A stretch of DNA of 51,858 nucleotides from Cyanobacteria bacterium P01_E01_bin.6 (GTDB lineage Bacteria > Cyanobacteriota > Cyanobacteriia > CAKZMO01). The notes under the pieces were generated by a model. It saw only the letters and a list, made by a program, of their open reading frames with translations. It was not told the DNA's origin and ran no database searches. The stretch covers positions 1 through 51,858 of the forward strand of contig JBCCWF010000002.1 of assembly GCA_039194035.1 (NCBI GenBank), written 5' to 3'. Below, one piece after another: positions 5,283 through 48,674 of the stretch (its first letter is position 1; the number at the start of each line of letters is the position of its first letter). The position numbers were made by a program, and so were the translations under genes.

Positions 5283-5319
5283 GTATCTCTCTTTTCTTTT
5301 TCCCTCTTTCCCTCTTCTT

Positions 5320-5334: not shown

Positions 5335-5427
5335 TCAAAATTTTTTCAGAGTTTCCTTATCACACTCCACTTGATTATTGATGCTGAATCTTTGGTAGAG
5401 TTGGAACCCACAAAATTTCAGAGTGCT

Positions 5428-6854: not shown

Positions 6855-6893
6855 GCCAGATTGCGTGTACCCTAAGGGGTGGGTCAGGCAGCC

Positions 6894-9092: not shown

Positions 9093-9132
9093 GTATCCCT
9101 CTTCTCTCTTTTTTCCCTCTTTCTCTCTTCAT

Positions 9133-9147
9133 TCGCGCTTTGCGCGA
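9133..9147 (+). promoter_or_regulatory. GC hairpin downstream of VR2 (TCGCGC-TTT-GCGCGA)
   Basis: It has a 6-bp perfect stem and a 3-nt loop, and is paralogous to 5320-5334. Confidence 0.55.
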
Positions 9148-9310
9148 TCAATTTTTTTTTTATAATCCTCTCCAAATCACTAGAGTTGTTTTTGAGGAAG
9201 CGATCGCACTTAAAATCTACCTTGCTCAGAGTTTGGTCAGAGGTTGTGGCCGAAACCATAACTATTTGTCTCTGCAGGGTTGAGGCGATCGCCCCTTAAC
9301 TCCAGAAAGC

Positions 9311-30120: not shown

Positions 30121-30582
30121 ATACTTACAGATACCCTTAACGAATGGTCATCTCATTCTAGCCACGACTTACTATAGGTTCCACAACTTCGAGTAGTTGC
30201 AATAGGCAAAGGGTTAGAAGACCCTAGCGCATTTGGAAGTATGAAATTGGGTCCAACCGTTTCTCTAGTCTGCGCCTTTCGCTTAACGGTTGGATATCTT
30301 GGATCCCCAAAAAACTTCTGAAAAATTTAGTGATTGAAGTCGCTTGAGGGCTATATGAGAAACTCAACTTGCTTTTCTAAAAAGTGAGGATTAGAACCAT
30401 CCCTATTACTGGACTGCTTTGATTGGTTGTGGTGACTGGCGTTTTTTTCAAATGAACAGATAGAGGAAACATTGTTAGACTTAATAAATCAGTAGGATTC
30501 TGCCCATAAGGCTCGCTGCAAGAGCTAGAATAACTTTGTCTTCTTGGCTCAGCTAGCCGCTTACACCCAGTTATTGAAGCTT

Positions 30583-33500
30583 ATGAATGCCCCCAGTCTT
30601 TGGTTTATTTCTGGCATATTGAAAGGCACGTCGATCGCTCTGACTACTACCAGCGCAATCTTTTTCGGCAGTGGCAGTGGTGCTGTCACAGCACCCCCTC
30701 AACTCTTAGCTCAACAAGCCTCTGAACGTACACCACAAACAATAACAGGCCAACTAGATCAGAGCTCTCCTGTCTTAGAAGATGATGGTAGCTACTACGC
30801 AACCCACACCTTTGCGGGCATTGCGGGAGAATCAATCACAATTAACCTTACCAGCAACGACTTTGATACCTACCTGCTGTTGCAAAGTCCTACGGGAGAT
30901 GTGATTGCTCAAGATGATGACGGTGCGGGAGACACAAATTCTCGTATTACACTGACCTTACCTACAACGGGAATTTACATACTGATTATAAACAGCTACG
31001 CAGCGAATGAAACAGGAATCTATTATCTGGAGTGGAAAGCAGCAAGCTCTGTAGAGTTGGAACTAGCACTAGCGTCTCAACTTAACGAGCAGGTCATCGC
31101 TCTCTATGAGGCTGGTAACTATGAAGCTGCGATTTCTCCAGCCGAGAACGCTCTGATGATCCGAGAGCAACAACTCGGATCCGATCATCTCTTGACTGCT
31201 GCTAGCCTCAACAATTTAGCTGCACTTTATCGGTCGATGGTACAGTATGAAAAAGCCGAACTACTTTATCAGCGTGCACTAGAAATTAGAGAGCGCCAAT
31301 TAGGTGCCAACCATCTCTTGACCGCTGCTAGCCTTAACAATCTCGCCTTACTATACGAATCTATGGGGCTTTATGGCAACGCAGAATCTCTCTATCAGCG
31401 CGCCTTGGAAATTCATGAACAACAGCTTGATTCTATACATCCTTCGATAGCCTCCAACCTCAATAATCTAGCTGCACTGTATCAATCAATAGGTCGCTAT
31501 GGGGAGGCAGAGCTACTTTATCAGCGTACCCTAAACATCTGGGATCAACAGCTAGAGCCCCAATATGCTGAGACCGTCAAAACCCTCGGGAATTTAGCTT
31601 TGTTGTATCGGTCGATGGGTCGCTATGCGGATGCAGAACCGTTTCTGCAACGTGCCCTATTAACGAGTGAACAACATTTGGGGGGCGACCACCCCTTAAC
31701 TGCCACCAGTCTTAATAATCTCGCATTGCTGTACGAGTCTATAGGTCGCTATAGGGAGGCAGAACTACTCTATCAACGCGCCCTAAACATTTGGGAGCAA
31801 CAGCTAGGTCCCGACCATTCTGATACTGTCACCAGCCTCAACAATCTCGCCGCACTGTATTATCGGGTGGGCCGCTACGCGGAAGCGGAACCGATATATC
31901 ATCGGGTCCTAGATATCTGGGAGCGACAACTAGGTTCCGACCATCCTTTAACAGCTACAGGTCTCAACAATCTCGCTGAGTTATATCGGTCTATGGGCCG
32001 ATATGAGAACGCTGAATTGCTGATGCAGCGAGCCCTAAAGATAAGTGAGCAACAGTTGGGAGCCGACCATCCCAATACCGCATCCAGTCTCAATAATCTC
32101 GCATTGCTGTATGAGTCTATGAGTCGCTATGGGGAAGCAGAACTCCTCTATAAAAAAGCCTTAGGGATTAGAGAGCACCAGTTGGGATCTGACCATCCAG
32201 ACACTGCACAAAGCTTCATTAATCTCGCTTCATTGTTTTACGCCCAAGAGCAACTGAAATTAGCCCTTAGCTATCTCAACAAAGGAGTTACCGCACAAGA
32301 AAGGGGGCTTAGTCAGAATTTAGTTGGGGGTTCAGATGCGAATAAACGTGATTACCTTGCCACGATGGTAGGTACGATGGATGTGGTGATGAGCCTCCAT
32401 CTTAACGCTCTATCCACTGATTCAGACGCTGCGTACCTAGCGCTGACTACACTCCTTCAACTTAAGGGTCGCATCCTCGACTTCTTTACAAACCTGCGCG
32501 CCCAATTAGCAAATGATCCTGTAGCCCTAGATCTCTTTGATGAGTTGACTGCAACAAGCACCCAGCTTTCAAACCTGACTCTAAACCAATTTGTCGATGT
32601 CTCGGTTGATAGTTATCAAGATCAACTTGACGATCTACAGGTTCGGGTTGGTACTTTGGAAAATCAACTCAGTCGCTTGAGCTCCGATTTTGCTAACCTG
32701 ACTGCTTCTCCTACTTTGATAGAGATTCAGACAGCTTTGCCCTCAGCAACTGCCCTGGTGGAGTTCATTCGCTATCGACCGTTGAACCCTACTGCCTCTG
32801 TTCAAGAGCGATTTGGTGATGATCGCTATGCCGCCTATATTTTGCAGCCCAATGGCACGATTCATGGCCTGGATTTAGGACCAGCTGAAGCCATTGATAC
32901 TGCCGTAAGTTCCTTATCGAATAGTTTGGCGTCATCAGATACTCCATTATTTCAAATTAAGGAGGAGGCTCAGACCCTTGAGAGTCTGGTAATGGCTCCA
33001 GTGCGTGACACATTGGGCGCAACAAATACCATCTTCCTCTCTCCTGACGGGACCCTTAACCTAATTCCCTTCGAAGCTCTGGTGGATGAGTCTGGCAACT
33101 ATCTGGTAGAGTCCTATCAGTTCCGATATCTTACCTCTGGTCGTGACCTAATGAGGTTGGACAATGTAACAGTTGCTTCCAATCCAGCACTCTTAATTGG
33201 CAATCCCACGTATGGCCTTCCTGGTGAGTTGGTAGCCCAAGCGGATACTCCCTCTACTCGATCAAACACCTTTAACTTCATCGAGCGCATCTTTCCAGTC
33301 TTGCCCGGTACCCAGGACGAGGTAGAACTGATTGCACCTAAGCTCTCTGATGCATTGGTCTACACCCAGACCAACGCAACCGAAGACATAATTAAAGAGC
33401 AGAGTCAGCCCAGCATTTTGCACATCGCTACCCACGGTTTCTTTGAACCAACTGAAGAAACAATAAATCCTCTCTTACAATCCGGGTTAATTTTGGCTGG

Positions 33501-33894
33501 TGCTGGCGCTGGTGGTCAAAGTGGCCCCGATCAGGATGGCATTCTAACGGCTCTGGAAGTTACTGGGATGAACTTGAGCGGCACTCAACTGGTAGTGCTC
33601 TCGGCCTGCGAAACAGGATTGGGTAAGTTGACAGCAGGTGAAGGAGTCTATGGCTTACGTCGGGCATTAGTTTTAGCGGGTTCTCAAAGTCAGGTCATCA
33701 GCTTATGGAAGGTAGATGACGCAGCAACCCAAGAATTGATGGTCAATTATTACGATCGCCTCCTCTCTGGCTCTCCCCGAGATGCTGCTTTACGAGAAAC
33801 CCAACTCGAATTTCTTGAGAGTGAAGAATACAGCCATCCCTACTACTGGGCTGCTTTTATCGGCTCTGGGGACTGGCGTCCTTTACAGCAATGA
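30583..33894 (+). CDS. CHAT paralog 1: N-terminal signal/TM segment, PPC (pre-peptidase C-terminal-like) domain, TPR array, CHAT protease domain
   Basis: The PPC-like region is ITGQLDQSSPVLEDDGSYYATHTF...DTYLLLQSPTG...DDDGAGDTNSRI. It has 42-aa TPRs. The CHAT His is ILHIATHGFF and the Cys is VVLSACETGLG, followed by SHPYYWAAFIGSGDW. Confidence 0.85.
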   Translation: MNAPSLWFISGILKGTSIALTTTSAIFFGSGSGAVTAPPQLLAQQASERTPQTITGQLDQSSPVLEDDGSYYATHTFAGIAGESITINLTSNDFDTYLLLQSPTGDVIAQDDDGAGDTNSRITLTLPTTGIYILIINSYAANETGIYYLEWKAASSVELELALASQLNEQVIALYEAGNYEAAISPAENALMIREQQLGSDHLLTAASLNNLAALYRSMVQYEKAELLYQRALEIRERQLGANHLLTAASLNNLALLYESMGLYGNAESLYQRALEIHEQQLDSIHPSIASNLNNLAALYQSIGRYGEAELLYQRTLNIWDQQLEPQYAETVKTLGNLALLYRSMGRYADAEPFLQRALLTSEQHLGGDHPLTATSLNNLALLYESIGRYREAELLYQRALNIWEQQLGPDHSDTVTSLNNLAALYYRVGRYAEAEPIYHRVLDIWERQLGSDHPLTATGLNNLAELYRSMGRYENAELLMQRALKISEQQLGADHPNTASSLNNLALLYESMSRYGEAELLYKKALGIREHQLGSDHPDTAQSFINLASLFYAQEQLKLALSYLNKGVTAQERGLSQNLVGGSDANKRDYLATMVGTMDVVMSLHLNALSTDSDAAYLALTTLLQLKGRILDFFTNLRAQLANDPVALDLFDELTATSTQLSNLTLNQFVDVSVDSYQDQLDDLQVRVGTLENQLSRLSSDFANLTASPTLIEIQTALPSATALVEFIRYRPLNPTASVQERFGDDRYAAYILQPNGTIHGLDLGPAEAIDTAVSSLSNSLASSDTPLFQIKEEAQTLESLVMAPVRDTLGATNTIFLSPDGTLNLIPFEALVDESGNYLVESYQFRYLTSGRDLMRLDNVTVASNPALLIGNPTYGLPGELVAQADTPSTRSNTFNFIERIFPVLPGTQDEVELIAPKLSDALVYTQTNATEDIIKEQSQPSILHIATHGFFEPTEETINPLLQSGLILAGAGAGGQSGPDQDGILTALEVTGMNLSGTQLVVLSACETGLGKLTAGEGVYGLRRALVLAGSQSQVISLWKVDDAATQELMVNYYDRLLSGSPRDAALRETQLEFLESEEYSHPYYWAAFIGSGDWRPLQQ

Positions 33895-33948
33895 CCAAAG
33901 CGACCATCGCTTCATTTAGAATCATGTCATTGCTGTGTTCTCAAACCC

Positions 33949-35232
33949 ATGACCCAACAGACCCTTGGTGCAGCCTTAACTGCCTATAGAGCTGCTCTTA
34001 AATCGGAGATTTCTGAGCCACAGCATGTGTTGGAAATTCTGAGTGCTCGCGATCGCCTTCATACTGCTCTAAAAGACGTACCAACCCCAGGGAATTATCT
34101 TCTCACTGAAATTCACAGTCTTGATCAAGTACTCAACAATAAAGCTACAGCTCTCATCTCAACATTAGATTTCAGCACCTATCGAAAAAGTTTCCCGAAG
34201 TCTTCAGAGCAGTGGTGGTGGTTTCTAGATGAGTCCTTGAAACCCAAATATGAGTGGGCTTGGAAAGGGTTCATCACTCTGCTATGGGCGATTAATTTGG
34301 GATTCTTGGTCAACATTAGTGGGCGCTTTTTGCTAGGGGGTGCTGGGGTGGCAGGGCTGTCTGCCGTTGCACTCACCAACCTATTGACGTTACTCAAAGC
34401 TCGCAATGATGTGACCAACGCGGGTCGTGAAGGGATTCAGTTTTTATTTGACCGATTTAAGATTGAAAAGAATCAGCAGTTGCAAGCGAAATTTGGAACT
34501 ACAGCTCTACTTACTGGAGGGCTTTGCACCTTTTGGTTGGCACTTCCATGGATTTCCAATATTTACAATCAGCGTGGACTCACAGCACAGCAAACAGGAA
34601 AGCTGGGCTCCGCCGAGCAGCGCTACACTCTTGCCATTTCCCTCAATGTTGACAATGTTGATGCCCATTACAACCTCGGAACTCTTTACGAAGATATTCA
34701 AGAACTTGATAAAGCTGAAACGCATTATGCGATCGCCATCCGAGGAGATTTGCCAGAAGCCTACAACAATTTAGCCCGACTCTATCTGCAATCGTCAGAG
34801 CCTGAGTTGAATAAAGCATTAGCATTACTCAATCAGGGTTTAAAATTGGCGGATGAACAGCAAAGCTATCCGGAAATTAAATATAGCCTCTATAAAAATC
34901 TGGGTTGGGCTCTGTATCAACAAGCAGAGCAAGACTCTTCACCATCGGCATTTAATGCTGCACAGTCTGCGTTGGATACTGCGATCGCCATTAGTGAGCA
35001 GCCAGAAGCAGAGTCCTATGTCAACAACCCTGGTTCTGCTCATTGCTTGCTGGCGCAAACCTTAGAAGCTCAGGGGCAGACAGATACCCTGCTGGTCTGG
35101 CAACGATGCTGCCAATTGGGCGATCGAAGTATACCTGAAGAAAATGGCTGGCTGACGCTAGCTCGTCAACGTTTTGAATCTGAAAACCTAGACTACAACG
35201 AAGTATGCCGATCTACCGCTACCCCGCTCTAA
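33949..35232 (+). CDS. Membrane protein with C-terminal TPR-like repeats (hypothetical)
   Basis: Hydrophobic segments include FITLLWAINLGFLVNISG and ALLTGGLCTFWLALPW. TPR-like segments include AHYNLGTLYEDIQELDKAETHYAIAI and EAYNNLARLYL. Confidence 0.5.
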   Translation: MTQQTLGAALTAYRAALKSEISEPQHVLEILSARDRLHTALKDVPTPGNYLLTEIHSLDQVLNNKATALISTLDFSTYRKSFPKSSEQWWWFLDESLKPKYEWAWKGFITLLWAINLGFLVNISGRFLLGGAGVAGLSAVALTNLLTLLKARNDVTNAGREGIQFLFDRFKIEKNQQLQAKFGTTALLTGGLCTFWLALPWISNIYNQRGLTAQQTGKLGSAEQRYTLAISLNVDNVDAHYNLGTLYEDIQELDKAETHYAIAIRGDLPEAYNNLARLYLQSSEPELNKALALLNQGLKLADEQQSYPEIKYSLYKNLGWALYQQAEQDSSPSAFNAAQSALDTAIAISEQPEAESYVNNPGSAHCLLAQTLEAQGQTDTLLVWQRCCQLGDRSIPEENGWLTLARQRFESENLDYNEVCRSTATPL

Positions 35233-36317
35233 TCATTTCTGTTGCCTTAACTTTAAGTAGTCTAGCCGTGACTGCTTTACCGGCTTGGAGTCAGACACGA
35301 GGCGGTAACTTCCTCAACCGCGTTCAAGGTGATGTTGTGGTGGGTCGATTTCTTATTACGCCTGATCAAGCAACAGAGGGAATGCTGTTGTCCACCAGTC
35401 ATCAGATTCGGGTAGGCACAAATAGTCAAGCGACACTGAATTGCCGAAACGGCGGCATTCATACCTTTGATCGTGCAGACACATACAATGTCGGTGATTA
35501 TTGCTCTGCTGGAAACGATGTCCGTGCTGAGTCACGAAGAGGTCCATCGCGTGGGACTTTCAACGCATCCTTGCCCTATGTTTTGACTCCTCGCAACACG
35601 GCACTCATCCCAACAGATTCTTTAGTCTTGCAATGGCATCCGGTAGAGGAAGCTACATCTTACGAGATCACCTTGAGTGGGTCTGGCGTTAACTGGACAA
35701 CTCAGGTTAGCGAGGCCCAAGTGAGCTACCCTGACATCGCAGCATTGAGGCCAGATTATCGCTACACCATAGTCATCACATCTGACAATGGACTCTCGTC
35801 TGCTTCGGTGCAATCTATAGGTTTTGCAGTTCTCTCTCCATCTGAAGACGATCGCGTTAATACACGAGTAGAAGAAATCGAGGCAAGGCAGCTAGGCCCC
35901 GATGTGGAGGCCATCGCCCTAGCATTGGAATACATCAACTTTCAACACAGCGATCCGGATCGTCAAAGCTATGCGCTCAATCAGGCAGCCCTAGATGTCT
36001 TAGAGGAACGAATTGACGCAGGAACTAACAATAGTCTGATTTATCTACTTCAAGCTGAGACTTATTTTACAGTTGGGTTACCACTGATGGCTCAAGAACG
36101 TTATGAGCAAGCGTTGATATTTGCTCAAGAAGCAGAGCAGCGAGAATTGCAGGCTGAAAGTTATTTGGGTTTAGCGACAGTCGCTGATGGACAAACAGAA
36201 TATAGAGATGCGATCGCACATCTGCAATCAGCTCAGCAGTTGTATGAAGAGTTGGGCGATTACGAACAAGCTGAGGCATTGCAGGTTCGAATTAATCTAG
36301 TAGAAGAAATACTGTGA
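35205..36317 (+). CDS. Secreted protein (signal peptide) with C-terminal TPR-like region, function unknown
   Basis: The N-terminus MPIYRYPALIISVALTLSSLAVTALPAWSQ is signal-peptide-like. The gene overlaps the upstream gene by 28 nt. Confidence 0.5.
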   Translation: MPIYRYPALIISVALTLSSLAVTALPAWSQTRGGNFLNRVQGDVVVGRFLITPDQATEGMLLSTSHQIRVGTNSQATLNCRNGGIHTFDRADTYNVGDYCSAGNDVRAESRRGPSRGTFNASLPYVLTPRNTALIPTDSLVLQWHPVEEATSYEITLSGSGVNWTTQVSEAQVSYPDIAALRPDYRYTIVITSDNGLSSASVQSIGFAVLSPSEDDRVNTRVEEIEARQLGPDVEAIALALEYINFQHSDPDRQSYALNQAALDVLEERIDAGTNNSLIYLLQAETYFTVGLPLMAQERYEQALIFAQEAEQRELQAESYLGLATVADGQTEYRDAIAHLQSAQQLYEELGDYEQAEALQVRINLVEEIL

Positions 36318-36433
36318 TCTTTTTTGCCATGGAGATGTTAGATGCCATCCTAAGCTAAACCTGCGTTACTGGTATCCAAACAGTCCCTAATTTTACTGAT
36401 TCCTCTTATACCCATTGATTGCCAGCTACTAAT

Positions 36434-39400: not shown

Positions 39401-39604
39401 AGTCAGGTCATCAGCTTATGGAAGGTCAATGACACGGCTACTCAAGAATTGATGGTCGAATACTACGATCGCCTCCTCTCAGGTACTCCTCGCGATGCGG
39501 CTCTGAGGGAAACCCAACTCGCTTTTCTAGAGAGTGAAGAATACAGCCATCCTTACTACTGGGCGGCTTTCATCGGATCTGGTGACTGGCGACCACTTGA
39601 GTAG
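36434..39604 (+). CDS. CHAT paralog 2: signal/TM, PPC-like, TPR array, CHAT protease
   Basis: It has the same architecture as paralog 1: LEDDGSYYETHTFEGTAGEAITIEL, LMHIATHGFF, VVLSACETGLG and SHPYYWAAFIGSGDW. Confidence 0.85.
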   Translation: MTTPYRDKTKVLSYFLTIIGLCTVSLSHASSANSAQPIPIAQLTDSRSLENFTGELSSRSSILEDDGSYYETHTFEGTAGEAITIELTSEEFDTYLILLSSNGTRLAHDNDGAEGTNSRITVTLRETGIYMVLVNSFEANQVGGYNLELRAATERESNLALAAQLSQQGLDLLNSGRYEEAFPLAERVVNILEEELGAEHLDTAIGLHNLGFLQHLRGMYEESEQLYLRALDIRKQYLGFDHPDTLSIMDDLAFAYTAMGNFVESEALSLQVLSIREQNFPAGNPQIASTLHRLAVLYRSSGRYEEAESFFRRALFILERDLGLDHLETAGTMNSLAEVYRLMGRYREAEPLYLQALAIAEEKYPPNHPNTATALSNLATLYDSTNRYREAEEIYFRAIGITEQLGSQHPLHGTVLNNLAAHYVSRGYFAVAEPLYLYALEITEQLGPEHPLVSKSLNNLAGLYMEMGRYEEAESLLVQSLSIAEKQLGPSHPFTATALLNLSSVNYLEGRSELALDFLNQALKVQETVLSNNFVSGSDASKRDFLDAVSITTNTLISLNLREFLNDPEATQLALDTILQRKGRILDFFTNIRTSLSADADSASLLDNLRISTNQLSTILFNPPRNVPVESYQAEIELLQNNIRTLEEQLSQRSSEFAELTNSPSWNDIRKQLSNGTALVEYIRYRNIDSRLPQPLRHGAYHYAAYILQSDGTIHSIDLGPAEAINAAVQDLSSSLTSSDTPLFQVKEEAQALERLVMAPVRAALGDTTTLFLSPDSALNLIPFESLVDESGNYLVETYQFRYLTSGRDLMRLDNTNASSNPALLIGNPTYGRSGEQVAQADTSAQTNTRGIDFENRIFPSLSGTQTEVDRIATLLPGITPYTGTDATEALLKQQDQPNLMHIATHGFFEATEESFNPLLQSGLILAGASLGQSGPDQDGILTALEVTGLNLRGTQLVVLSACETGLGELAAGEGVYGLRRALVLAGSQSQVISLWKVNDTATQELMVEYYDRLLSGTPRDAALRETQLAFLESEEYSHPYYWAAFIGSGDWRPLE

Positions 39605-39728
39605 CAAGGCTAATCATTAGCGATCATTGAGTCAAGCCGATTCAGCTTATCCATTGCTAATATATGCTCATCGGGGTTAGTCAAAAGTTTGCAGTTTTGA
39701 AAACCTTACAGCTATCAAATAATTCAAC

Positions 39729-42258
39729 ATGAAAAAGCTGCTTTGTTTGCTGCTCCTGTCTCAAGGATTGTTTTCTATTGCGAGTTCTGCTCTAGCCCAA
39801 ACAGCCGATGATTCCCCACAAGCGACAGACGGAAGGTATTCACAAATCGAAGAGGGTTTCATCTCAGACTGTATGAATCAGCCGATGCCTGCTGCGTTGT
39901 CAGGTGTTCGCATTTCCGACTCAGTTCGAACTAACTACTGCAATTGTTGGTTTGATTACGTCAAATCAAACTTTTCATACGAAGAGTTTTCTGAGCTAAA
40001 CGACACGATTACTGCTGATCCAACGGCGGTTATGACCCTGAACCCGCAAACCTTAAACTTGATGGCTCAAGGCTTTCAAGAGTGCTACGACTATGCCATC
40101 GAAGCGCAACAAAATGCAGAGCCAGAGCAAAATCTGGCAGCAGAGATCGAACAACTCGAAGAGCAGATCGCTGCTCTACTCAACCAAAGACAGTTTGAAG
40201 AAGCCACGTTAGTTGCAGAGCAAATTGTAGAAAAAAAAACTCTTGAAGGGGGATACGCATCAATCTTTAGCTGAGCCTATTTACAATCTAGCAGAGCTTT
40301 ATAGACAGCAGGGAAGGTATCTTGAAGCTGAACCGCTATATCAAGAGGCGCTGACCATCTTGGATCTACACTTTGGTGAAACTCTCGATACAGCAGCAAC
40401 TCTCCATAGCTTAGGGCTACTCTCTTATTCGCTAGAGCAATACAGTGATGCCGAGAATTACTTTCAGCGATCGCTAGAAATCGTTAACAGAGGCTATGAA
40501 ATAATCAATAGCCTCGACCCTGCGCTAAATGCGATTCTGACTGAACAGATAGAAAATACCTTCCTAGAAACCTCACCTGCTGTTTACGTCAGTCTGGCGG
40601 GTCTTTACCACAAGCAACAGGAATACGATCGCGCTTTTAGCTTTCTGAAGCAGGCTATTGATAGAGAAGAAGCTTCACTTGTTCGAAATTTGGTAGCGGG
40701 GTCTGATGCCGACAAACAGAATTACCTCAAGAGTGTCGTTGGGACAACCAATGTAGCCATCAGTCTTCATCTCAATCATTTGTCCACATCAACTGAATCC
40801 GCTGAACTTGCACTTTCAACAATTTTGCAGCGGAAGGGCCGGGTTCTCGACCTTTTTACCAACCTTCGTGCCCAGCTTGCTGACGATCCTACAGCCGTCG
40901 AGTTGTTCGATGAATTGCGTGAGGCTAGTAATCGGTTATCAACATTAGCGTACAACCTTTCGTTGAGGCTCTCTGCACAAGAACGTCGAACTCAAATTGG
41001 TACATTACAGGAACGCATTGGAATACTTGAAGATCAGTTGAGTCGCCGCAGCTCAGAGTTTGCTGAACTCACCACATCCCCTACTCTAGAAGACATTCAA
41101 TCGCTATTACCTTCCGACACCGTCTTGATAGATTTCATTCGCTATCAACCCTTAGTAACTGAAGCCGGAGCCGAAGATCGGTTTGCCCCTCCCCGCTATG
41201 CCGCCTACCTGTTCCATACTGACGGCACCGTTCAAGGCATAGATTTAGGGTCAGCCGTAATAATCGACGAAGCAGTCAAAACACTTTCTAGGAGCCTTGC
41301 CTCGCCTGACACACCTCTCTTTCAGGTAAAAGAAAACGCGCGATCGTTGGATGCTCTGGTAATGGCTCCAGTTCGAGATGCACTGGGAGATATCAAAACA
41401 CTCTACATCTCTCCTGATAGTACGCTTAACCTGCTGCCCTTCGAAGCTCTCGTCGATGAGTCGGGGAGCTATCTCATCGAGACCTATCAGTTTCGCTACC
41501 TCACCTCTGGTCGCGACTTGCTGCGAATCAGGAATTCCTCCACCAGCACCAACCCTGCTTTGCTGATTGGTAACCCTGCTTATTCTCGACCTGGAGAAAC
41601 TATTGCTCAAGCCGATAGTAGCCCGAGAAGAAGCATCAACTTGGGCGATCGCATCTTTCCATCTTTACCAGGTACTCAGGAAGAAGTAGTGCGAGTTGCA
41701 TCCCTCCTTCCGAATGCCGAGGTTTATACACAGGCTAATGCCACTGAAGCTGCGGTCAAGCAACAGTCCCAGCCCAGTATTCTGCACATCGCTACTCATG
41801 GTTTCTTTGAACAAATAGGAGAAATTGAAAATCCTCTGTTGCGATCAGGGCTTATCCTAGCTGGTGCTTCTGAAAGCCAAAGCGGTCCTGAGCAGGACGG
41901 TATTCTCACTGCTCTAGAGGTAACAGAACTAAATCTACAAGATACTCAATTGGTAGTGCTCTCGGCCTGTGAAACAGGTTTGGGAGAGCTAGCGTTTGGA
42001 GAAGGATTGTATGGATTACGCCGTGCCCTGGTGTTAGCTGGCTCTCAGAGTCAGGTGATCAGCTTGTGGAAAGTAGATGATTCCGCTACCCAAGAGTTGA
42101 TGGTCAACTACTACGATCGCCTCCTCGCTAATGCTCCACGCGATGCCGCTCTACGAGACACCCAACTTGCTTTTCTAGAAAGCGAAGACTACAGCCATCC
42201 CTACTACTGGACAGCATTCATTGGCTCGGGTGATTGGCGATCATTACAAATGAATTAA
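39729..42258 (+). pseudogene. CHAT paralog 3 with a different N-terminus (signal peptide plus Cys-containing domain, few TPRs), split into two ORFs (39729-40274, 40243-42258) by a frameshift at an A9 tract
   Basis: The signal peptide is MKKLLCLLLLSQGLFSIASSALAQ. The second ORF opens immediately after the TAG at 40228-40230 in its frame. Removing one A gives a continuous ...AEQIVEKKLLKGDTHQSLAEPIYNLAELY. The CHAT motifs are intact. Confidence 0.65.
40231..40239 (+). repeat. A9 homopolymer at the frame switch of CHAT paralog 3
   Basis: Read directly (GTAG AAAAAAAAA CTCTTG). Confidence 0.9.
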
Positions 42259-42379
42259 GCACAACAAATTAGCATCGTCTGAAGCGAAAGAAATCGCGCC
42301 ATAATGCTCGAGGTAGGGGCAAGCATAGATTCGTCTACTCTGTTCCACTAAACATATTTACCCTCAGTACGTGAAGGTT

Positions 42380-42903
42380 ATGAAATCCCTCAATCTCTGG
42401 TTTATTCCTGGCAATTTAAAAGGTGTAATGATCGTTTTGACCACGATCAGCACAGTCTTTTTCGGCAACAGCAATGTTATTGCCATGGCGCCACCTCAAC
42501 TTGCTGCTCAACAAGCATCAGCGAGAACACCGCAGACAATAACAGGTGAATTAGACCAGAATTCTCGTGTCATGGAAGACGATAACAACTACTACGAAAC
42601 TCATACCTTTGAGGGCATCGCGGGGGAAACCATAACCATTGAACTAACCAGCGATGACTTTGATACTTACCTCATCTTAGAAAGTCCCACTGAAGAGTGG
42701 ATTGCTCAAGACGATGATGGAGCCGGTGGCACCAACGCTCAAATCATCCTTACATTGCCAAAAACAGGGACTTATCAGCTGATTGTAAACAGTTATCAAG
42801 CAGGTGAGACTGGAGATTATCAGCTGGAGTGGAGGACTGCAACCGCTACTGAGCAGCCCTTGGCAAATGCAGCACAGCTTAATCAACGCACCATGGAGTT
42901 GTA
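42380..42903 (+). pseudogene. 5' fragment of CHAT paralog 4 (signal/TM plus PPC-like domain), truncated by IS insertion
   Basis: MKSLNLWFIPGNLKG... and MEDDNNYYETHTFEGIAGETITIEL are present. Homology to the paralogs ends at ...AAQLNQRTMELY, exactly at the IS end. The remaining ORF-track residues are read-through into the IS. Confidence 0.8.
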
Positions 42904-44552
42904 TTGGACTTTTAACAAAAAAATGAGTCAGGAGTGTCTATCTCTGCCGATTGCAGAGTGTGTTGTCACGAAGCAATATGAGTGAATTCAATCAACGTTA
43001 AGCTGCTTTTTTCTTCTTTTTCAGTCTAGCCCGCCCCCGTTTGATGATGGGTCGTCGCGGTCTGTGGGATAAGGTGGTTCCAGCGGTGCGACCCGGAGAT
43101 TTACCTCGGGGTTTGGACTCAGCAGCCGGGGTGCCAATCTGCCGAATAATTCGCGTGAAGTCACGCTGAACCATGGCGGGTGTGCAGTGGTGTTGTGTGT
43201 AGTCTGGTAAGAATCGTTGCCACGGTTGAGGGAGTCCCTGCGCCAACAATCGTGCCATCCACAATTGGACATAGGCTAACCAGGAGAATTGAACCCACGC
43301 TTCCTCTTGAGTGACATCAGGGGTTTGTAGGTCATTCATCATTAGGTTCTGCTTAGTGAAGCGAATGCCGTGTTCAAGATTGAAACGCTCGGTATAGCCT
43401 TGGTAGACGTTGCGAGTATCTAGCTGCTGCCGAGAGTGACCAAAGACGATTAACCATTGAGGTTTGAAGAGCCGGTGTCCGGTGGGGTCAGCGAGCTGGA
43501 CTTGGACGAGGTCAAAGGGATGAGCATGCATGGGTTGGGCCTGTGAGCCTTTCATCAAAAGAGCATACCAACGGGTTAAGGTAACGGTCCGAACGTGGCC
43601 TTTGGTGGTGGTGGTTTCAAATTTGATTTGCTCGTCAGGCTCCCCCCACGTGGTCTCATCTTTAAGGTCGAAGCGCTGGCCATACCAACGAGGATGGCCA
43701 CGTCGCTTCTCAGTAGACGCCTGCGGTATCCGATAGAAAACACGATTGGCGCGACTGCGGGTGACAATCACTCGATTTTCCTGAGTGCTGAAGGGATATA
43801 AAAATCGGCGATGACTATAATCACTATCGACCACCAGCACACACCGCTGACTATGCCAGGGTAAGGTCTCGTCATCGAGCAGACGCTCTACCTGCTGCTG
43901 CCCCACCTCGACCTTGCTCTCAAAACTGGTGACACGTTCCACGCTGAGTGGAACAATCCAACGACGCCCTCCCGTGACCTCAGCTTCGGGGATAGCGGCC
44001 ATCAGTGAATAGTTGTGCCCCAAGGTGATCGGTTTTTGGCCTGCAACCACCGTGGGTTTGTAGACCGACTCACGATCCTTGAGAGTGATGGCATGGGGGC
44101 GATTCACCGGGGTGACATCCACACCAAATAACCAATAATCCCGATGGGACGGGGGCGGTACTCCCTTGGCAATTGACTGTATCCAAGTCTGAGGAAATCG
44201 AGACTGAGGAGGACTCCCGTCAGGTTGGTCTGACGCGCTCACCTCATCGCGGGTTGCCCTCAAGGCTCCGATAGCCCCATATAACGATCCATACTCTCGC
44301 CGAAACATAGGGTTGAGGCTTAACTCAACAACAGACCTGGCATGGGTATTCCCACACAGGGCATCTAACAAATCCATCAGACTATCGGACCGTTGATTGA
44401 AACTCGCGTAAACCTGCTCTCGAAATTGGTTGAGTTGATTGATACGATCTTGCACATTCATGGCAATAGGCTGAGCTTCTTTTGGTTTTGCTCTTTATCG
44501 CCTATTGCCGCTTCCTAGTACATTGCTCTCTTCAAATTTGTACAAAGTCCAA
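42904..44552 (-). mobile_element. Insertion sequence (1649 bp) with imperfect terminal inverted repeats and 7-bp target-site duplication AGTTGTA
   Basis: The ends are TTGGACTTTTAACAAA... and ...TTTGTACAAAGTCCAA (first 9 nt perfect). AGTTGTA occurs at 42897-42903 and 44553-44559. Removing the IS plus one duplicate restores the reading frame ...MELYQAGLY... Confidence 0.85.
42998..44461 (-). CDS. DDE transposase (IS4/IS701-like, family assignment tentative)
   Basis: This 487-aa ORF fills the IS and has a basic C-terminal tail. The family guess comes from overall resemblance to cyanobacterial DDE transposases and is not verified. Confidence 0.7.
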   Translation of the reverse strand: MNVQDRINQLNQFREQVYASFNQRSDSLMDLLDALCGNTHARSVVELSLNPMFRREYGSLYGAIGALRATRDEVSASDQPDGSPPQSRFPQTWIQSIAKGVPPPSHRDYWLFGVDVTPVNRPHAITLKDRESVYKPTVVAGQKPITLGHNYSLMAAIPEAEVTGGRRWIVPLSVERVTSFESKVEVGQQQVERLLDDETLPWHSQRCVLVVDSDYSHRRFLYPFSTQENRVIVTRSRANRVFYRIPQASTEKRRGHPRWYGQRFDLKDETTWGEPDEQIKFETTTTKGHVRTVTLTRWYALLMKGSQAQPMHAHPFDLVQVQLADPTGHRLFKPQWLIVFGHSRQQLDTRNVYQGYTERFNLEHGIRFTKQNLMMNDLQTPDVTQEEAWVQFSWLAYVQLWMARLLAQGLPQPWQRFLPDYTQHHCTPAMVQRDFTRIIRQIGTPAAESKPRGKSPGRTAGTTLSHRPRRPIIKRGRARLKKKKKAA

Positions 44553-47452
44553 AGTTGTATCAGGCGGGTCTTTACGCAGAGGCAGTTCCCATAGCCGAAC
44601 AAGCTCTGACAGTTCGTGAAGAGGCATTAGGACTCAACCATCTCCTCACTGCTACTAGCCTGAATAATCTGGCCTCTCTGCACCTCTCTCTGGGACACTA
44701 TGAAGAGGCCGAACCTCTCTTTCAAACGGCTCTGACAGTTACTATGCAGATTTTGGGTCTTGACCATCCCAAGACCGCCACCAACTTCAATAATCTGGCT
44801 AATCTTTATTTGTCGCAGGGCCGTTATGAGGAGGCCGAACCTCTCTTTCAAAGAGCATTGGCAGTCACTGAACAAGCCTTAAGTCCTAACCATCCTCATA
44901 CTGCCCAAAGTTTGAATAATCTGGCTAATCTTTATTTGTCGCAGAGCCGTTATGAGGAGGCCGAACCTCTCTTTCAAAGAGCATTGGCAATCCGTGAGGC
45001 AGTCTTAGGCTCTGATGATCGCATGACTACCTCCAGCCTCAATAATCTGGCCGAACTGTACCGGTTACAGGGCCGTTATAGGGAGGCCGAACCTCTCTTT
45101 CAAAGAGCATTGGCAATCGCTGAACAAGCCTTAGATTCTAACCATCCTTATATAGCAACCTACTCTAATGATTTGGCTGAGCTGTATCGGTTGCAGGGCC
45201 GTTATGGAGAGGCTGAGCCTCTCTATCAAAGGGCACAGGCTATTTACGAAAATTCCTTAGGTATCAACCATCCCTTTACTGCTACTAACCTCAATAATTT
45301 GGCTGCGCTATACAACTCACAGGGACGCTATGAAGAAGCCGAACTCCTCTTTCGTCAAGTGTTGACAATCCGTGAAGCAGTTTTAGGCATCAATCATCCC
45401 GACACGGTTTCTAGCCTTAATAATCTGGCCGAGCTGTATCGATTGCAGGGACAATATGAAGAGGCCGAATCTCTCTATCAAAAGGCCTTATCTATTAACG
45501 AGCAATTATCGAGAGCCAATCATCCCGAGGCAGCCCTCACTCTAAATAATCTGGCCGAGCTGTATCGGTTGCAGGGACAATATGAAGAGGCCGAATCTCT
45601 CTATCAAAGAGCGCTGACAATTACGGAACAAACCTTTGGGGTTAGACATCCCAATACAGCTCTCATTTTAAATAATTTGGCCTTGCTGCACAGCTTACAG
45701 AGACACTATGAAGAAGCTGAATCTCTCTATCAGACGGCCTTATCCATTCATATTCAAACCTTGGGGCTTGAACATCCCAATGTAGCTCTCAGCCTGAATA
45801 ATCTAGCTGAGATGTATCACGTTCAAGGTCAATTTCAGCTGACTCTTTCTTACCTGCGTCGAGGGTTGACTGTCGAAGAGACCGTCCTCAGTCGTAATCT
45901 AGTGGGTGGTTCTGATGCCGACAAACGCGATTATCTGAGGACAATGATAGGCACGACCAACGCGGTTGTAAGCTTGCACCTCAACGATCTTAACACTGAT
46001 TTCGAGGCTACTCACCTGGCGCTCACAACACTGCTACAACGAAAAGGCCGCATCCTTGACATTTTCACGAATTTGCGAGCCGAACTTTCCAATACCCCTT
46101 TAGCCCTAAGTCTCTTGGATGAGTTGAGTGCGACTGTCACCCAGCTTTCAAACTTAACCTTAAACCCGTTTGTCGATGCCTCGGTTGATAGCTATCGAAC
46201 TCAACTTGAAGATCTTCAAGCTCGTGTTGGTACTCTAGAAGACCGACTCAGTCGCTTGAGTACTGATTTTGCTAACTTAACCGCTTCTCCTGCTTTGCCA
46301 GAGATTCAGGAAGCTTTGCCCCAATCCACTGCTTTAGTTGAGTTCACTCGTTATAAACCGTTTAATCTCACTGCCTCTGCTCAAGGACAATTTGGTTCCG
46401 ATCGCTATGCTGCCTATATTCTGCAGCCCAACGGTACGATTCAGGGCTTGGATTTGGGGGCAGCTGAGGACATTGATACCGCTGCACGCGCCTTATCTAA
46501 AAGCTTGGCATCATCGGAGACTCCACTATTTCAGGTCAAAGAAGAGGCTCAAGCTCTTGAGAGTCTGGTGATAGCTCCGGTGCTTAATGTTTTGGGGAAC
46601 ATTACTACGCTGTTTCTCTCGCCCGATGGTGCTCTTAACCTGATTCCTTTTGAAGCTCTGGTAGATGAGTCTGGTAACTATCTTGTGGAGACCTATCAGT
46701 TCCGATATCTCACCTCTGGTCGTGACCTGATGCGATTAGATAACGCAACCGTAGCATCCAATCCAGCTCTCCTAATCGGCAATCCCTCTTACGGTCGTCC
46801 AGGTGAACTGGTTGCTCAAGCTGACACTCGAGCTATCGATTTCGAGAACCGCAACTTTCCGTCGCTACCCGGCACCCAGAGAGAGGTAGACTTAATTGCT
46901 TCCAGACTTGTGAATGCCCAGGTTTACACCGAGACTAACGCTACTGAAGCGGTGCTCAAGCAACAATCTCAGCCAAGCATCTTGCACATTGCCACCCACG
47001 GCTTCTTTGAGCCCGTCGAGGAAACGCTCAATCCTTTGTTACAGTCAGGGCTTATTTTGGCTGGGGCCGCTGCGGGTGGACAGAGTGGTCCGGACCAAGA
47101 TGGTATTCTCACTGCACTGGAAGTCACTGGCATGAATTTGCGGGGGACACATGTCGTTCTCTCTGCTTGTGAAACGGGACTGGGAGAATTGGCTGCTGGG
47201 GAAGGTGTTTATGGCCTTCGTCGTGCCCTGGTGCTAGCGGGTTCTCAGAGTCAGGTCATCAGTTTATGGAAGGTAGATGACACGGCTACTCAAGAATTGA
47301 TGGTCGAGTACTATGATCGCCTTCTCTCTGAAACTCCTCGCGATGCAGCTCTACGAGAAACCCAACTCGCTTTTCTAGAGAGTGAAGAATACAGCCATCC
47401 CTACTACTGGGCTGCGTTCATCGGTTCTGGCGACTGGCGACCGTTACAATAA
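44553..47452 (+). pseudogene. 3' portion of CHAT paralog 4 (TPR array plus CHAT domain) downstream of the IS
   Basis: It resumes at ...YQAGLYAEAVPIAEQAL in frame with the 5' fragment once the IS is removed. The motifs ILHIATHGFF, VVLSACETGLG and SHPYYWAAFIGSGDW are present. Confidence 0.8.
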
Positions 47453-48524: not shown

Positions 48525-48674
48525 ACCGTTCACCTCCCGATTCTGATTCGTTTGTCTAACACCTGATAATCGGTTTTATCCGGTTTAGCAAGACACTTGC
48601 ATGACTAAAACTGAACGGTAATACTACCGTACGTACGATACACACATGAGGTCTGTAATACTTGCGAGTCAATA

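What the first reader, a model, noticed from the sequence alone, without database searches (positions are those of the whole stretch)
30544..47452. Array of four paralogous CHAT protease genes (three exported PPC-TPR-CHAT) on a mobile element, two of them disrupted
Four same-strand genes share a highly similar CHAT domain, with His in (I/L)(L/M)HIATHGFF and Cys in VVLSACETGLG. Their 3' ends are clearly homologous at the nucleotide level, but the numbers of 42-aa TPRs vary. Paralogs 1, 2 and 4 begin with a hydrophobic signal/TM segment and a PPC-like beta-sandwich (EDDGSYY.THTF.G.AGE.ITI.L.S..FDTYL). Paralog 3 has a different signal-peptide-bearing N-terminus. TPR-CHAT proteins are usually discussed as cytoplasmic caspase-like effectors, for example the protease partner of type III-E CRISPR systems. 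Here the leader peptides and PPC domains argue for export. The expansion, the variable sensor arrays and the ongoing inactivation (A9 frameshift, IS hit) are the pattern expected of a fast-evolving conflict or surface-interaction family.
Basis: partly seen in the sequence, partly recalled or inferred. Interest (0 to 1): 0.7.

Follow-up and report, generated by a model that had tools for sequence, protein, structure and literature searches.

The report
Exported caspase-like protease gene array
A plasmid-like cyanobacterial contig carries four copies of a caspase-like (CHAT) protease that is built for export out of the cytoplasm, arranged around two conserved envelope partner genes; the only studied relative of this large, almost unstudied family is a phage-defence anti-sigma factor.

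Summary
There are four same-strand TPR-CHAT genes. P1, P2 and P4 begin with a leader and a PPC domain. P3 is split at an A9 run. P4 is split by a 1,648-bp IS with an 8-bp target duplication.

Export is supported beyond the leaders. About 90% of full-length relatives start with a signal-peptide-like segment. The mature ~1,000-residue proteins keep only the catalytic cysteine.

gA is a 3-TM protein with a periplasmic, Cys-containing TPR domain. gB is secreted, with two beta-sandwiches plus TPR. gA-gB-CHAT is a conserved, mostly chromosomal cyanobacterial cassette. In Acidobacteriota the homologous exported CHAT gene follows an ECF sigma/anti-sigma pair. This is a split form of Myxococcus DdvS/DdvA, the only characterised periplasmic TPR-CHAT.

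The "fast-evolving, mobile-element" reading is weak:
- Synonymous sites are saturated.
- dN/dS is 0.04-0.18.
- There are no recent conversion tracts.
- The linker+CHAT family holds about 25,000 clusters.

The P3 "frameshift" lies in an A9 tract. The same tract is also out of frame in a deeply diverged ortholog, which suggests a slippery or phase-variable switch rather than decay.

Most likely function: ligand-gated periplasmic proteases that signal through gA/gB. This mechanism is inferred, not shown.

The parts
30544..33894 (+). P1: leader (weak) - PPC-like beta-sandwich - about 9 KLC-type 42-aa TPR units - helical linker - CHAT protease. Intact, 1116 aa from the TTG start. The likely true start is the ATG at 30583 (residue M14), by alignment with P4.
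   Evidence: CHAT E 1.1e-79; PPC 17.6 bits, below cutoff but homologous to the P2 and P4 domains; single Cys = the catalytic C1022.
33949..35232 (+). gA: conserved partner. Cytoplasmic N-terminal helical domain (about 1-96), three TM helices (about 104-125, 127-150, 184-204), C-terminal TPR domain (about 210-427) with conserved cysteines, predicted to face the periplasm.
   Evidence: More than 620 cyanobacterial homologs. AF2 pLDDT 89. The K/R-rich 150-183 loop indicates an N-in/C-out topology. No Pfam or NCBIfam family covers the N-terminal half.
35205..36317 (+). gB: conserved partner. Signal peptide, two beta-sandwich (Ig/Big-like) domains with a Cys pair, then four TPR-like hairpins.
   Evidence: 40 homolog clusters, all cyanobacterial. 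AF2 pLDDT 85.8. Best PDB fold match is the MtxA C-terminal domain 4z29 (E 4e-6).
36419..39604 (+). P2: signal peptide - PPC - about 8 TPR units - linker - CHAT. Intact, 1061 aa.
   Evidence: PPC 27.0 bits (above cutoff); CHAT E 3.5e-81; Cys only in the leader (C27) and at the catalytic site (C968).
39729..40274 (+). P3 N-terminal ORF: signal peptide plus a Cys-rich domain (4 Cys after the leader) with no known family, plus the start of the first TPR. It ends 11 codons after the A9 tract.
   Evidence: The only homolog found is the 155-aa ORF of L090.
40231..40239 (+). A9 homopolymer at the P3 frame break. A8 or A11 would fuse the two ORFs into an 842-aa protein. A homologous A9 tract, off frame in the other direction, sits at the same codon in the L090 ortholog.
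40243..42258 (+). P3 C-terminal ORF: 2-4 TPR units - linker - CHAT, with an intact His/Cys dyad.
   Evidence: CHAT E 4.6e-84. dN/dS against the other paralogs is 0.05-0.15.
42371..42904 (+). P4 5' part: signal peptide - PPC - start of the first TPR, up to the IS insertion point.
   Evidence: PPC 24.5 bits.
42905..44552 (-). Insertion sequence (1,648 bp) that interrupts P4. Transposase at 42998-44461 on the minus strand. Terminal inverted repeats. 8-bp target duplication AGTTGTAT at 42897-42904 and 44553-44560.
   Evidence: NF041680 440.8 bits (cutoff 440); DDE_5 E 5e-23.
44561..47452 (+). P4 3' part: about 10 TPR units - linker - CHAT. After precise IS excision, P4 is a 1,141-aa ORF.
47541..48533 (-). 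Tyrosine recombinase flanking the array (context, not part of the module).
   Evidence: It is only 24% identical to the integrase beside the syntenic array in L081, so it is not a conserved partner.

Best explanation
The locus is an expanded, plasmid-borne copy of a conserved cyanobacterial envelope module, gA-gB-(TPR-)CHAT.

What the parts are. The CHAT proteins are translocated by Sec into the periplasm; in a cyanobacterium the thylakoid lumen cannot be excluded. Each mature protein carries:
- a PPC beta-sandwich (in P3, a Cys-rich domain instead);
- a variable array of 42-aa TPR units that acts as the ligand- or partner-binding sensor;
- a helical linker;
- a caspase-like His-Cys protease.

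gA spans the membrane, with a cytoplasmic N-terminal helical domain and a periplasmic, probably disulfide-bonded TPR domain. gB is a secreted beta-sandwich plus TPR adaptor.

Proposed mechanism (inferred). A periplasmic protein signal binds the TPR/PPC sensor and activates the resting CHAT protease. The protease then cuts a periplasmic target, most plausibly gA or gB. The event is relayed across the membrane, by analogy with site-1 cleavage of an anti-sigma factor. The several paralogs, with different TPR arrays and N-terminal domains, would give several input specificities to one gA/gB transducer.

State of the copies. P1 and P2 are intact. P4 was recently knocked out by an IS. P3 is gated by a slippery A9 tract.

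Shown: gene architecture, leaders, Cys depletion, conserved synteny, and envelope features of the partners. Inferred: localisation, the substrate and the signalling output.
For: Architecture and catalytic dyad.

Export:
- Leaders in P2, P3, P4 and gB.
- 63/70 genome relatives are signal-peptide-like against 115/247 controls, p = 8e-12.
- 102/116 of the best representatives are signal-peptide-like.
- The mature P1-P4 contain only the catalytic Cys. P(<=1 Cys in about 1,000 residues) is about 1e-3 at the control frequency.
- 37/70 and 59/116 relatives have exactly one Cys, whereas the window's cytoplasmic TPR_12 protein has 9.

Partners:
- gA and gB homologs lie immediately upstream of a CHAT gene in L002-L005, L008, L081, L083, L084, L087 and L088. 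gA-gB are paired in 13/13 contexts, with a CHAT gene next in 11/13.
- gA topology and conserved Cys.
- gB signal peptide and beta-sandwich fold.

Link to signalling:
- In 18-19 acidobacterial loci the homologous exported TPR-CHAT gene directly follows, on the same strand, a divergent ECF sigma (9/18 match Sigma70_r2, 8/18 match r4_2) and a zf-HC2 anti-sigma-like TM protein (7/14).
- DdvA of M. xanthus is a TM anti-sigma with a periplasmic TPR-CHAT that is proposed to self-cleave as the site-1 step (PMC11506125).
- ECF54 sigmas are reported to have CHAT proteins in their conserved context (PMC8999054).

Selection: dN/dS 0.04-0.18 in all paralog pairs, including P3 and P4.
Against: - No signal-peptide predictor and no experiment was available. 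The P1 leader fails my crude test, and that test has a 47% positive rate in the control ORFs.
- gA is not homologous to the acidobacterial anti-sigma proteins (hhalign probability 0.2%). It has no zinc-finger anti-sigma motif.
- No sigma factor lies beside the cyanobacterial cassettes, so the cytoplasmic output is unknown.
- Fold searches of gA and gB return only generic TPR and Ig-like matches.
- No substrate is identified.
- Sequence similarity to DdvA and Csx29 is marginal (E 0.1-0.5).
- Even for DdvA the trigger and the autoproteolysis are unproven.
Confidence: 0.5

Rival explanations
1. Periplasmic housekeeping proteolysis. The exported TPR-CHAT enzymes, with gA and gB as TPR adaptors, degrade or process envelope proteins such as cell-wall hydrolases, septal or outer-membrane proteins. 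This would be analogous to the Prc-NlpI, CtpA-LbcA or BepA systems. There would be no dedicated signal relay.
For: - The cassette is chromosomal, widely conserved in cyanobacteria and sits among housekeeping genes.
- Purifying selection is strong.
- The partners are pure TPR/Ig scaffolds with no enzymatic or DNA-binding domain.
- No PADLOC defence model matches.
- HetF shows that a cyanobacterial CHAT protease can serve cell division and development (PMC9457339 and PMC8406250, listed).
- The TPR-adaptor protease pairs named above come from general knowledge and were not tested here.
Against: - gA has a conserved cytoplasmic domain of about 100 residues, which an adaptor would not need.
- Acidobacterial homologs are operonic with sigma/anti-sigma pairs.
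- Variable multi-copy sensor arrays are atypical for housekeeping proteases.
Confidence: 0.22
2. This is a fast-evolving conflict or surface-interaction family: secreted or surface proteases that act on competitors, phages or hosts, diversifying by duplication, repeat shuffling and loss on mobile elements.
For: - TPR unit numbers differ between paralogs. The P4 units are 72-82% identical at the nucleotide level, and variability is concentrated at a few repeat positions.
- Tandem arrays and IS hits recur, including on a Tolypothrix plasmid.
- Paralogs cluster by genome.
- The contig is rich in conflict systems: a DGR, STAND proteins and a PglZ fragment.
- In Moorena a TPS-domain exoprotein gene lies inside the cassette.
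Against: - dS is saturated, dN/dS is 0.04-0.18 and there are no conversion tracts.
- The cassette is mostly chromosomal and often has one CHAT gene.
- There is no immunity-like or toxin-like partner.
- There is no PADLOC match.
Confidence: 0.13
3. Cytoplasmic caspase-like immune effectors, Craspase/Csx29-like or NLR-like. On this view the hydrophobic N-termini are not export signals.
For: The TPR-CHAT layout is shared with Csx29 and separase. There is weak sequence similarity to Csx29 around the catalytic Cys (E about 0.1).
Against: - Signal-peptide-like starts in about 90% of relatives.
- Cys depletion.
- A PPC domain typical of secreted proteases.
- Envelope partners.
- No cas or gRAMP genes, gasdermin or NTPase domain in the proteins or next to them.
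Confidence: 0.03
4. A decaying paralog cluster. The array is redundant cargo being lost from a plasmid, and both the A9 frameshift and the IS are simple inactivating lesions.
For: Two of the four copies are interrupted. P4 has a one-residue deletion next to the catalytic Cys. There is a truncated PglZ gene nearby.
Against: - P1 and P2 are intact.
- All copies show low dN/dS.
- The P4 ORF is restored perfectly by IS excision, so the insertion is recent.
- The P3 tract and both flanking ORFs are conserved in a deeply diverged ortholog.
Confidence: 0.08

Closest known systems
DdvA/DdvS of Myxococcus xanthus (PDB 8ROT; PMC11506125)
   Same: The TPR-CHAT domain is located in the periplasm and has a His-Cys dyad. 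It is proposed to sense a periplasmic protein signal and to act as a site-1 protease in trans-envelope signalling. Acidobacterial homologs of the window's proteins sit in sigma/anti-sigma operons.
   Different: - DdvA is one polypeptide (zinc anti-sigma domain - TM - scaffold - TPR-CHAT) paired with an ECF sigma.
- Here the CHAT protein is a separate secreted protein with a signal peptide and a PPC domain.
- The membrane partner gA is unrelated to anti-sigma factors, and no sigma gene is adjacent.
- Sequence similarity is marginal (E 0.46).
- DdvA-like fusions were reported only in Myxococcota and one Comamonas species.
Craspase protease Csx29 (type III-E CRISPR TPR-CHAT) and separase
   Same: A TPR superhelix followed by a CHAT caspase-fold protease held in a resting state.
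   Different: These are cytoplasmic and are activated by gRAMP/target RNA or by securin. The window has no cas genes. Sequence similarity is only E about 0.1 around the catalytic Cys. Leaders, the PPC domain and Cys depletion are found only in the window's family.
HetF (Anabaena CHAT protease; PMC9457339, PMC8406250)
   Same: A cyanobacterial CHAT protease associated with the membrane or divisome, with a specific protein substrate (PatU3).
   Different: The domain layout differs: HetF has no signal peptide-PPC-TPR array and no gA/gB partners. The comparison rests on the literature listing, not on an alignment made here.
ECF54-type sigma factors with CHAT, subtilase or carboxypeptidase genes in their conserved context (PMC8999054, citing Casas-Pastor 2021)
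   Same: There is a genomic association between ECF sigma factors and CHAT proteases. This matches the acidobacterial sigma/anti-sigma/CHAT operons found here.
   Different: I did not test whether the acidobacterial sigmas belong to ECF54. The cyanobacterial cassette in the window has no sigma gene.
Periplasmic protease plus TPR-adaptor pairs (Prc-NlpI, CtpA-LbcA, BepA); general knowledge
   Same: TPR proteins that direct a periplasmic protease to envelope substrates.
   Different: The protease classes are unrelated (serine or metallo). No homology was tested or expected. This is a functional analogy only.

Membership tests
CHAT domain proteases (Pfam PF12770, clan CD caspase fold) | Match to the CHAT profile above the gathering score | tested here: met
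   268-283 bits against a cutoff of 24 in all four paralogs.
CHAT domain proteases (Pfam PF12770, clan CD caspase fold) | Conserved catalytic His and Cys | tested here: met
   H964 and C1022 (P1 numbering) are invariant in the four paralogs and in the L090 ortholog.
PPC, bacterial pre-peptidase C-terminal domain (PF04151) | Profile match above the gathering score (25.9 bits) | tested here: inconclusive
   P2 27.0 bits (met), P4 24.5 and P1 17.6 (below cutoff). All three are mutually homologous, and the same domain is found in 7 other cyanobacterial CHAT loci and in 18/150 representatives. Acidobacterial N-terminal domains match weakly in 2/9.
Sec-exported proteins | N-terminal signal peptide (n-region, h-region, AXA-like site) | tested here: inconclusive
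   A crude rule-based test passes P2, P3, P4 and gB and fails P1. Family-wide enrichment is p = 8e-12. No SignalP was available and there is no experiment.
Sec-exported proteins | Composition consistent with an oxidising compartment (Cys depleted or paired) | tested here: met
   The mature CHAT proteins have only the catalytic Cys. gA, gB and the P3 N-terminal domain have conserved Cys sets.
DdvA-type transmembrane anti-sigma with periplasmic TPR-CHAT | N-terminal zinc anti-sigma domain and a TM helix fused to TPR-CHAT | tested here: not met
   There is no zf-HC2 or anti-sigma domain in P1-P4. They start with leaders.
DdvA-type transmembrane anti-sigma with periplasmic TPR-CHAT | Adjacent cognate ECF sigma gene | tested here: not met
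   None was found among the window ORFs scanned or beside the cyanobacterial cassettes. Only L088 has an ECF/RskA pair, about 6 kb away. The feature is met in split form in acidobacterial relatives.
Type III-E Craspase (Csx29) | Genomic and physical association with gRAMP/Cas7-11 and a CRISPR array | tested here: not met
   No cas-related domains were found in the window ORFs scanned. Tandem-repeat hits in the array are the 126-nt TPR units only.
Bacterial gasdermin-associated CHAT proteases | Adjacent gasdermin gene | tested here: not met
   The neighbours are gA, gB, an IS and a recombinase. There is no PADLOC hit.
IS with NF041680/DDE_5 transposase | Transposase above the curated cutoff, terminal inverted repeats, target-site duplication | tested here: met
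   440.8 bits against a cutoff of 440; IR 16 nt at 88%; 8-bp TSD and clean excision.
Phase-variable (contingency) or slippage-controlled gene | Homopolymer tract inside the coding region at the frame break | tested here: met
   A9 at 40231-40239, the only A run of 8 or more in 51.8 kb.
Phase-variable (contingency) or slippage-controlled gene | Tract-length variation between or within strains, or frame-corrected mRNA or protein | tested here: inconclusive
   Only one ortholog was found (L090). It also has A9, but needs +1 where the window needs -1. No further orthologs were found. There are no read or RNA data.
Conjugative or mobilisable plasmid, or ICE | Relaxase, coupling protein and partition genes on the same replicon | tested here: met
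   TrwC/MobF relaxase, TrwB-type T4CP and ParA-like protein. Circular closure and a T4SS were not shown.

The most novel reading that the evidence does not exclude
Cyanobacteria carry a widespread, undescribed three-component envelope sensing system. One or several secreted, cysteine-free TPR-caspase proteases act as ligand-gated site-1 proteases on a dedicated 3-TM transducer (gA), with a secreted adaptor (gB). This would be a sigma-independent, split counterpart of the DdvA anti-sigma and of the acidobacterial sigma/anti-sigma/CHAT operons. In the window's lineage the system has several inputs (four paralogs), and one input (P3) is switched by a conserved slippery A9 tract through phase variation or transcriptional slippage.
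Probability: 0.3. Interest if true: 0.75.

Novelty: new variant of a known kind. Interest (0 to 1): 0.6.

Why it matters
Caspase-like CHAT proteases are now central to prokaryotic immunity (Craspase, gasdermin activation), and they are treated as cytoplasmic enzymes. The data here show that the window's proteins belong to a very large family built for the periplasm.

- The family holds about 25,000 clusters at 50% identity that match both linker and CHAT at E<=1e-30.
- Its only studied member is DdvA, whose trigger and substrate are still unknown.
- The conserved gA-gB-CHAT cassette gives a compact three-gene system that occurs in culturable strains (Leptolyngbya PCC 7375, Moorena producens JHB, Sphaerospermopsis and Anabaena relatives). 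In such strains localisation, substrates and signalling output could be tested directly.
- The acidobacterial sigma/anti-sigma/CHAT operons supply a natural split version of DdvA for testing the idea that a CHAT protease acts as the site-1 protease.
- The single-cysteine composition is a simple sequence marker that could sort exported from cytoplasmic CHAT proteases in databases.

Tried and rejected
- Megablast of the 20.6-kb region against PLSDB plasmids: no match.
- Exact look-up of P2 in public assemblies: not on record, probably because the called start differs.
- Word-indexed search with the signal peptide + PPC module: only two short fragments.
- Pfam at E<=10 and NCBIfam on the N-terminal halves of gA and gB and on the P3 N-terminal domain: nothing useful.
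- PADLOC on the CHAT protein, gA and gB: only generic TPR hits.
- Foldseek of the gA and gB models against PDB: generic TPR; for gB, also the Ig+TPR protein MtxA, whose function is itself unknown.
- hhalign of gA against the acidobacterial anti-sigma family: no relationship. 'gA is an anti-sigma homolog' was rejected.
- Promoter and terminator scan of the array: no more sites than in shuffles.
- Recent gene conversion as the cause of 3' similarity: rejected, because dS is saturated and the longest identical run is 44 nt.
- A conserved integrase as part of the module: rejected, at 24% identity.
- Further P3 orthologs, wanted so that A-tract lengths could be read. All searches failed:
  - the DNA pattern scan and the protein-guided scan of metagenome contigs;
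  - tblastn against plasmids;
  - 90% clusters, which are singletons.
- The tRNA scan was empty and there is no terminal overlap, so neither an integration site nor circularity could be established.

Full report
1. What is there.

The region holds four same-strand genes for TPR-CHAT proteins:
- P1: 30544-33894.
- P2: 36419-39604.
- P3: 39729-40274 plus 40243-42258.
- P4: 42371-42985 plus 44555-47452.

Pfam finds a CHAT domain in each (E 1e-79 to 5e-84) and many TPR_10/TPR_12 units. It finds a PPC domain at the N-terminus of P2 (27.0 bits, cutoff 25.9), P4 (24.5) and P1 (17.6). In the alignment the catalytic His (HIATHGFF) and Cys (VVLSACETGLG) are invariant.

P3 is broken inside A9 at 40231-40239, the only A run of 8 or more in the window. 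One A fewer gives an 842-aa ORF. P4 is interrupted by a 1,648-bp IS (42905-44552) with inverted repeats, an 8-bp duplication AGTTGTAT and an NF041680/DDE_5 transposase. Precise excision restores a 1,141-aa ORF.

2. Context.

The window appears to be a whole 51,858-bp contig, because the window's own proteins are on record with that contig length. It carries the following:
- a MobF/TrwC relaxase (nearest plasmid relatives are Leptolyngbya boryana plasmids, 34% identity);
- a TrwB-type coupling protein and a ParA-like protein;
- a tyrosine recombinase;
- a DGR with two FGE-sulfatase/CLec targets behind an iSTAND-AAA-vWA trio;
- an EAD4-NB-ARC plus TPR pair;
- a truncated BREX-2 PglZ.

A mobile, conflict-rich replicon is a fair description. 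Circularity was not shown.

3. Are the proteins exported?

Four independent lines agree.

(a) Leaders. P2, P3, P4 and gB pass a simple n/h/c-region test. P1 has a weaker h-region and fails.

(b) The leader is a family trait. It is found in 63 of 70 full-length relatives from other genomes against 115 of 247 neighbouring control ORFs (Fisher p = 8e-12). It is also found in 102 of 116 N-terminally complete proteins among the best 150 representatives of an independent 1.8-billion-protein library.

(c) Cysteine content. The mature P1-P4 contain only the catalytic cysteine. The chance of at most one Cys in about 1,000 residues is about 1e-3 at the control frequency. Across relatives the Cys frequency is 0.19-0.20% against 0.86% in controls, and about half of the relatives have exactly one Cys. 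The window's cytoplasmic TPR_12 protein has nine. This is what one expects of a thiol protease that must work in an oxidising compartment.

(d) The partners are envelope proteins (section 4).

No signal-peptide predictor or experiment was available, so export is well supported but not proven. In a cyanobacterium the thylakoid lumen remains an alternative destination.

4. The partner genes.

Homologs of gA and gB sit in the order gA-gB-CHAT in the closest cyanobacterial loci: L002-L005, L008, L081, L083, L084, L087 and L088. In the 13 contexts read, gA and gB are always adjacent. A CHAT gene follows in 11; the other two are cut by an IS or by the contig end.

Most of these loci are chromosomal, among housekeeping genes. 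Examples are the Moorena producens JHB chromosome and a 1.2-Mb Sphaerospermopsis contig.

gA has more than 620 full-length cyanobacterial homologs. gB has 40 homolog clusters. Neither has a specific Pfam or NCBIfam family outside its TPRs.

AlphaFold models:
- gA (pLDDT 89) has an N-terminal helical domain, three TM helices with a K/R-rich loop between TM2 and TM3 (topology N-in, C-out), and a C-terminal TPR domain with conserved cysteines.
- gB (pLDDT 86) has a signal peptide, two beta-sandwich domains with a Cys pair, and four TPR hairpins. Its best PDB match is the Ig+TPR protein MtxA.

Both partners are scaffolds, not enzymes.

5. How old and how dynamic is the array?

Nucleotide identity in the linker+CHAT module is 63-75%, rising to 80-91% at the 3' end. 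Synonymous sites are saturated in every region (pS 0.57-0.79). dN/dS is 0.04-0.18, lowest in the CHAT core. The longest identical run between any two copies is 44 nt. The 3' similarity therefore reflects protein constraint, not recent gene conversion, and the enzyme part is not fast-evolving.

Syntenic arrays exist elsewhere. L081 has CHAT, CHAT, gA, gB, CHAT. L002 has CHAT, gA, gB, CHAT, CHAT. In both, the paralogs cluster by genome (88-90% identity within L081). This points to lineage-specific duplication or older concerted evolution.

TPR unit numbers differ between paralogs. The P4 units are 72-82% alike at the DNA level, and variation is concentrated at a few repeat positions. The sensor part is therefore the plastic part.

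6. Family size and spread.

They fall in Cyanobacteria, Acidobacteriota and Myxococcota. The same profile finds 25,313 clusters at E<=1e-30 in the representative library. The window-type PPC N-terminus is a cyanobacterial subfamily.

It does not affect the export reading.

7. What it most likely does.

The key comparative result comes from Acidobacteriota. In 18-19 loci the homologous exported TPR-CHAT gene is directly preceded, on the same strand, by two genes:
- a protein of about 200 aa that half of the members identify as a divergent ECF sigma (Sigma70_r2 in 9/18, r4_2 in 8/18);
- a TM protein of about 330 aa with a zf-HC2 anti-sigma motif (7/14).

The only characterised periplasmic TPR-CHAT is DdvA of Myxococcus xanthus. 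DdvA is a TM anti-sigma whose periplasmic TPR-CHAT is proposed to sense a phage-associated protein and to clip its own linker as the site-1 step before RseP cleavage. Its authors call it the only such structure and found DdvA-like fusions only in Myxococcota and one Comamonas species (PMC11506125). ECF54 sigmas are also reported to have CHAT genes in their context (PMC8999054).

The acidobacterial operons look like DdvS/DdvA split into three genes. The cyanobacterial cassette replaces sigma/anti-sigma with gA/gB.

I therefore propose that the window's CHAT proteins are ligand-gated periplasmic proteases. Their TPR/PPC parts sense a periplasmic protein, and their cleavage target is an envelope protein, most plausibly gA or gB. 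gA would relay the event to the cytoplasm.

Weak points:
- gA is not homologous to anti-sigma factors.
- No sigma gene is adjacent in cyanobacteria.
- No substrate is known.
- The DdvA mechanism is itself unproven.

The main rival is a housekeeping envelope protease with TPR adaptors.

8. The P3 'frameshift'.

An ortholog with the same Cys-rich N-terminal domain exists in L090, an ENA contig of 36.5 kb that is syntenic (gB, IS, PPC-TPR-CHAT, then the split gene). It is split at the homologous codon, again in a run of nine A.

The window needs one A fewer (or two more) to fuse the ORFs. L090 needs one A more (or two fewer). The two orthologs are only about 51-61% identical, yet both keep intact ORFs and catalytic motifs on both sides of the tract.

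The window's exact 181-aa N-terminal product is also on record from an independent Logan assembly. This argues against a simple assembly error in the window.

The pattern fits a hypermutable or slippery tract (phase variation or transcriptional slippage) better than a private inactivating lesion. With two sequences, and with possible long-read homopolymer errors in L090, it stays unproven. Searches for more orthologs failed.

9. Verdict.

- The export idea is well supported and is the valuable part.
- The 'fast-evolving, mobile, decaying' framing is largely not supported.
- The system is not a Craspase, not a gasdermin protease and not a DdvA-type fusion; the defining features were tested and not met.
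- It is best filed as a new variant of the periplasmic TPR-CHAT kind, with a conserved and apparently undescribed partner pair.

My literature searches found no description of secreted PPC-TPR-CHAT proteins or of the gA-gB cassette. The library searched is incomplete.

Noticed in passing
window 40231-40239; L090 5989-5997: The A9 tract at the P3 frame break is conserved at the same codon in a deeply diverged ortholog. That ortholog is also out of frame, but in the other direction (window needs -1 nt, L090 needs +1 nt). Both flanking ORFs are intact in both genomes. Possible phase-variable or slippage-controlled expression.
   Followed up: partly
window 76-9092: A complete diversity-generating retroelement. 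It has a bAvd gene (5215-5772), an RT (5769-6854), a template repeat at 6896-7017 and two variable repeats (5159-5280 and 8969-9090, 87-89% identical to the template repeat) at the 3' ends of two FGE-sulfatase/CLec genes (3708-5282, 7365-9092). It lies downstream of an iSTAND - AAA(MoxR-like) - vWA trio (76-3696). This is the class of DGR-diversified 'antigen sensors' described in PMC10907252.
   Followed up: partly
L018, L022, L025, L044, L045, L052, L053, L056, L057, L061, L063, L064, L066, L071, L073, L075, L080 (upstream of the CHAT gene): In Acidobacteriota the homologous exported TPR-CHAT gene is the third gene of an apparent operon: divergent ECF sigma (about 200 aa) - zf-HC2 anti-sigma-like TM protein (about 330 aa) - CHAT. 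This is a split version of the Myxococcus DdvS/DdvA system.
   Followed up: partly
window 15347-18602 (minus strand): An EAD4-NB-ARC ORF (16992-18602) and a 10-unit TPR_12 ORF (15347-17053) overlap by 62 nt. This is probably one STAND/NLR-like gene, either split by a frameshift that is not at a homopolymer, or two coupled genes. The TPR part has 9 Cys, unlike the exported CHAT proteins.
   Followed up: no
window 28617-29765 (minus strand): A truncated BREX-2 PglZ gene. It matches residues 411-753 of the 890-position profile at 366 bits. No other BREX genes were seen in the window.
   Followed up: no
L083 10884-13760 (Moorena producens JHB chromosome): A 958-aa protein with a TPS (two-partner-secretion, haemagglutination-activity) domain is inserted between gB and the TPR-CHAT gene of the cassette. 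This hints that some cassettes involve secretion beyond the periplasm.
   Followed up: no
window 30544-47452 and relatives (L001-L080, P0163-P0312): About half of all relatives of roughly 1,000 aa contain exactly one cysteine, the catalytic one. This composition could serve as a sequence marker for exported CHAT proteases.
   Followed up: yes
L086 9599-10636; L090 527-1834; L089 15022-16419: IS or transposase insertions inside or next to gA-gB-CHAT cassettes recur in other cyanobacteria (Leptolyngbya PCC 7375, the L090 contig, a Tolypothrix PCC 7601 plasmid). The IS hit in P4 is therefore not unusual for this kind of locus.
   Followed up: no
window 35205-35268: The public gene call for gB (349 aa, P0003) starts 21 codons downstream of the ATG used here and would remove the signal peptide. 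Homologs such as P0005 start at the upstream Met, so the 370-aa version is probably correct.
   Followed up: partly
window 9152-9161: A T10 run, the only other homopolymer of 8 or more in the window. It lies just after the second DGR target gene, inside a 57-nt repeat that follows both target genes (5290-5346 and 9103-9159).
   Followed up: no
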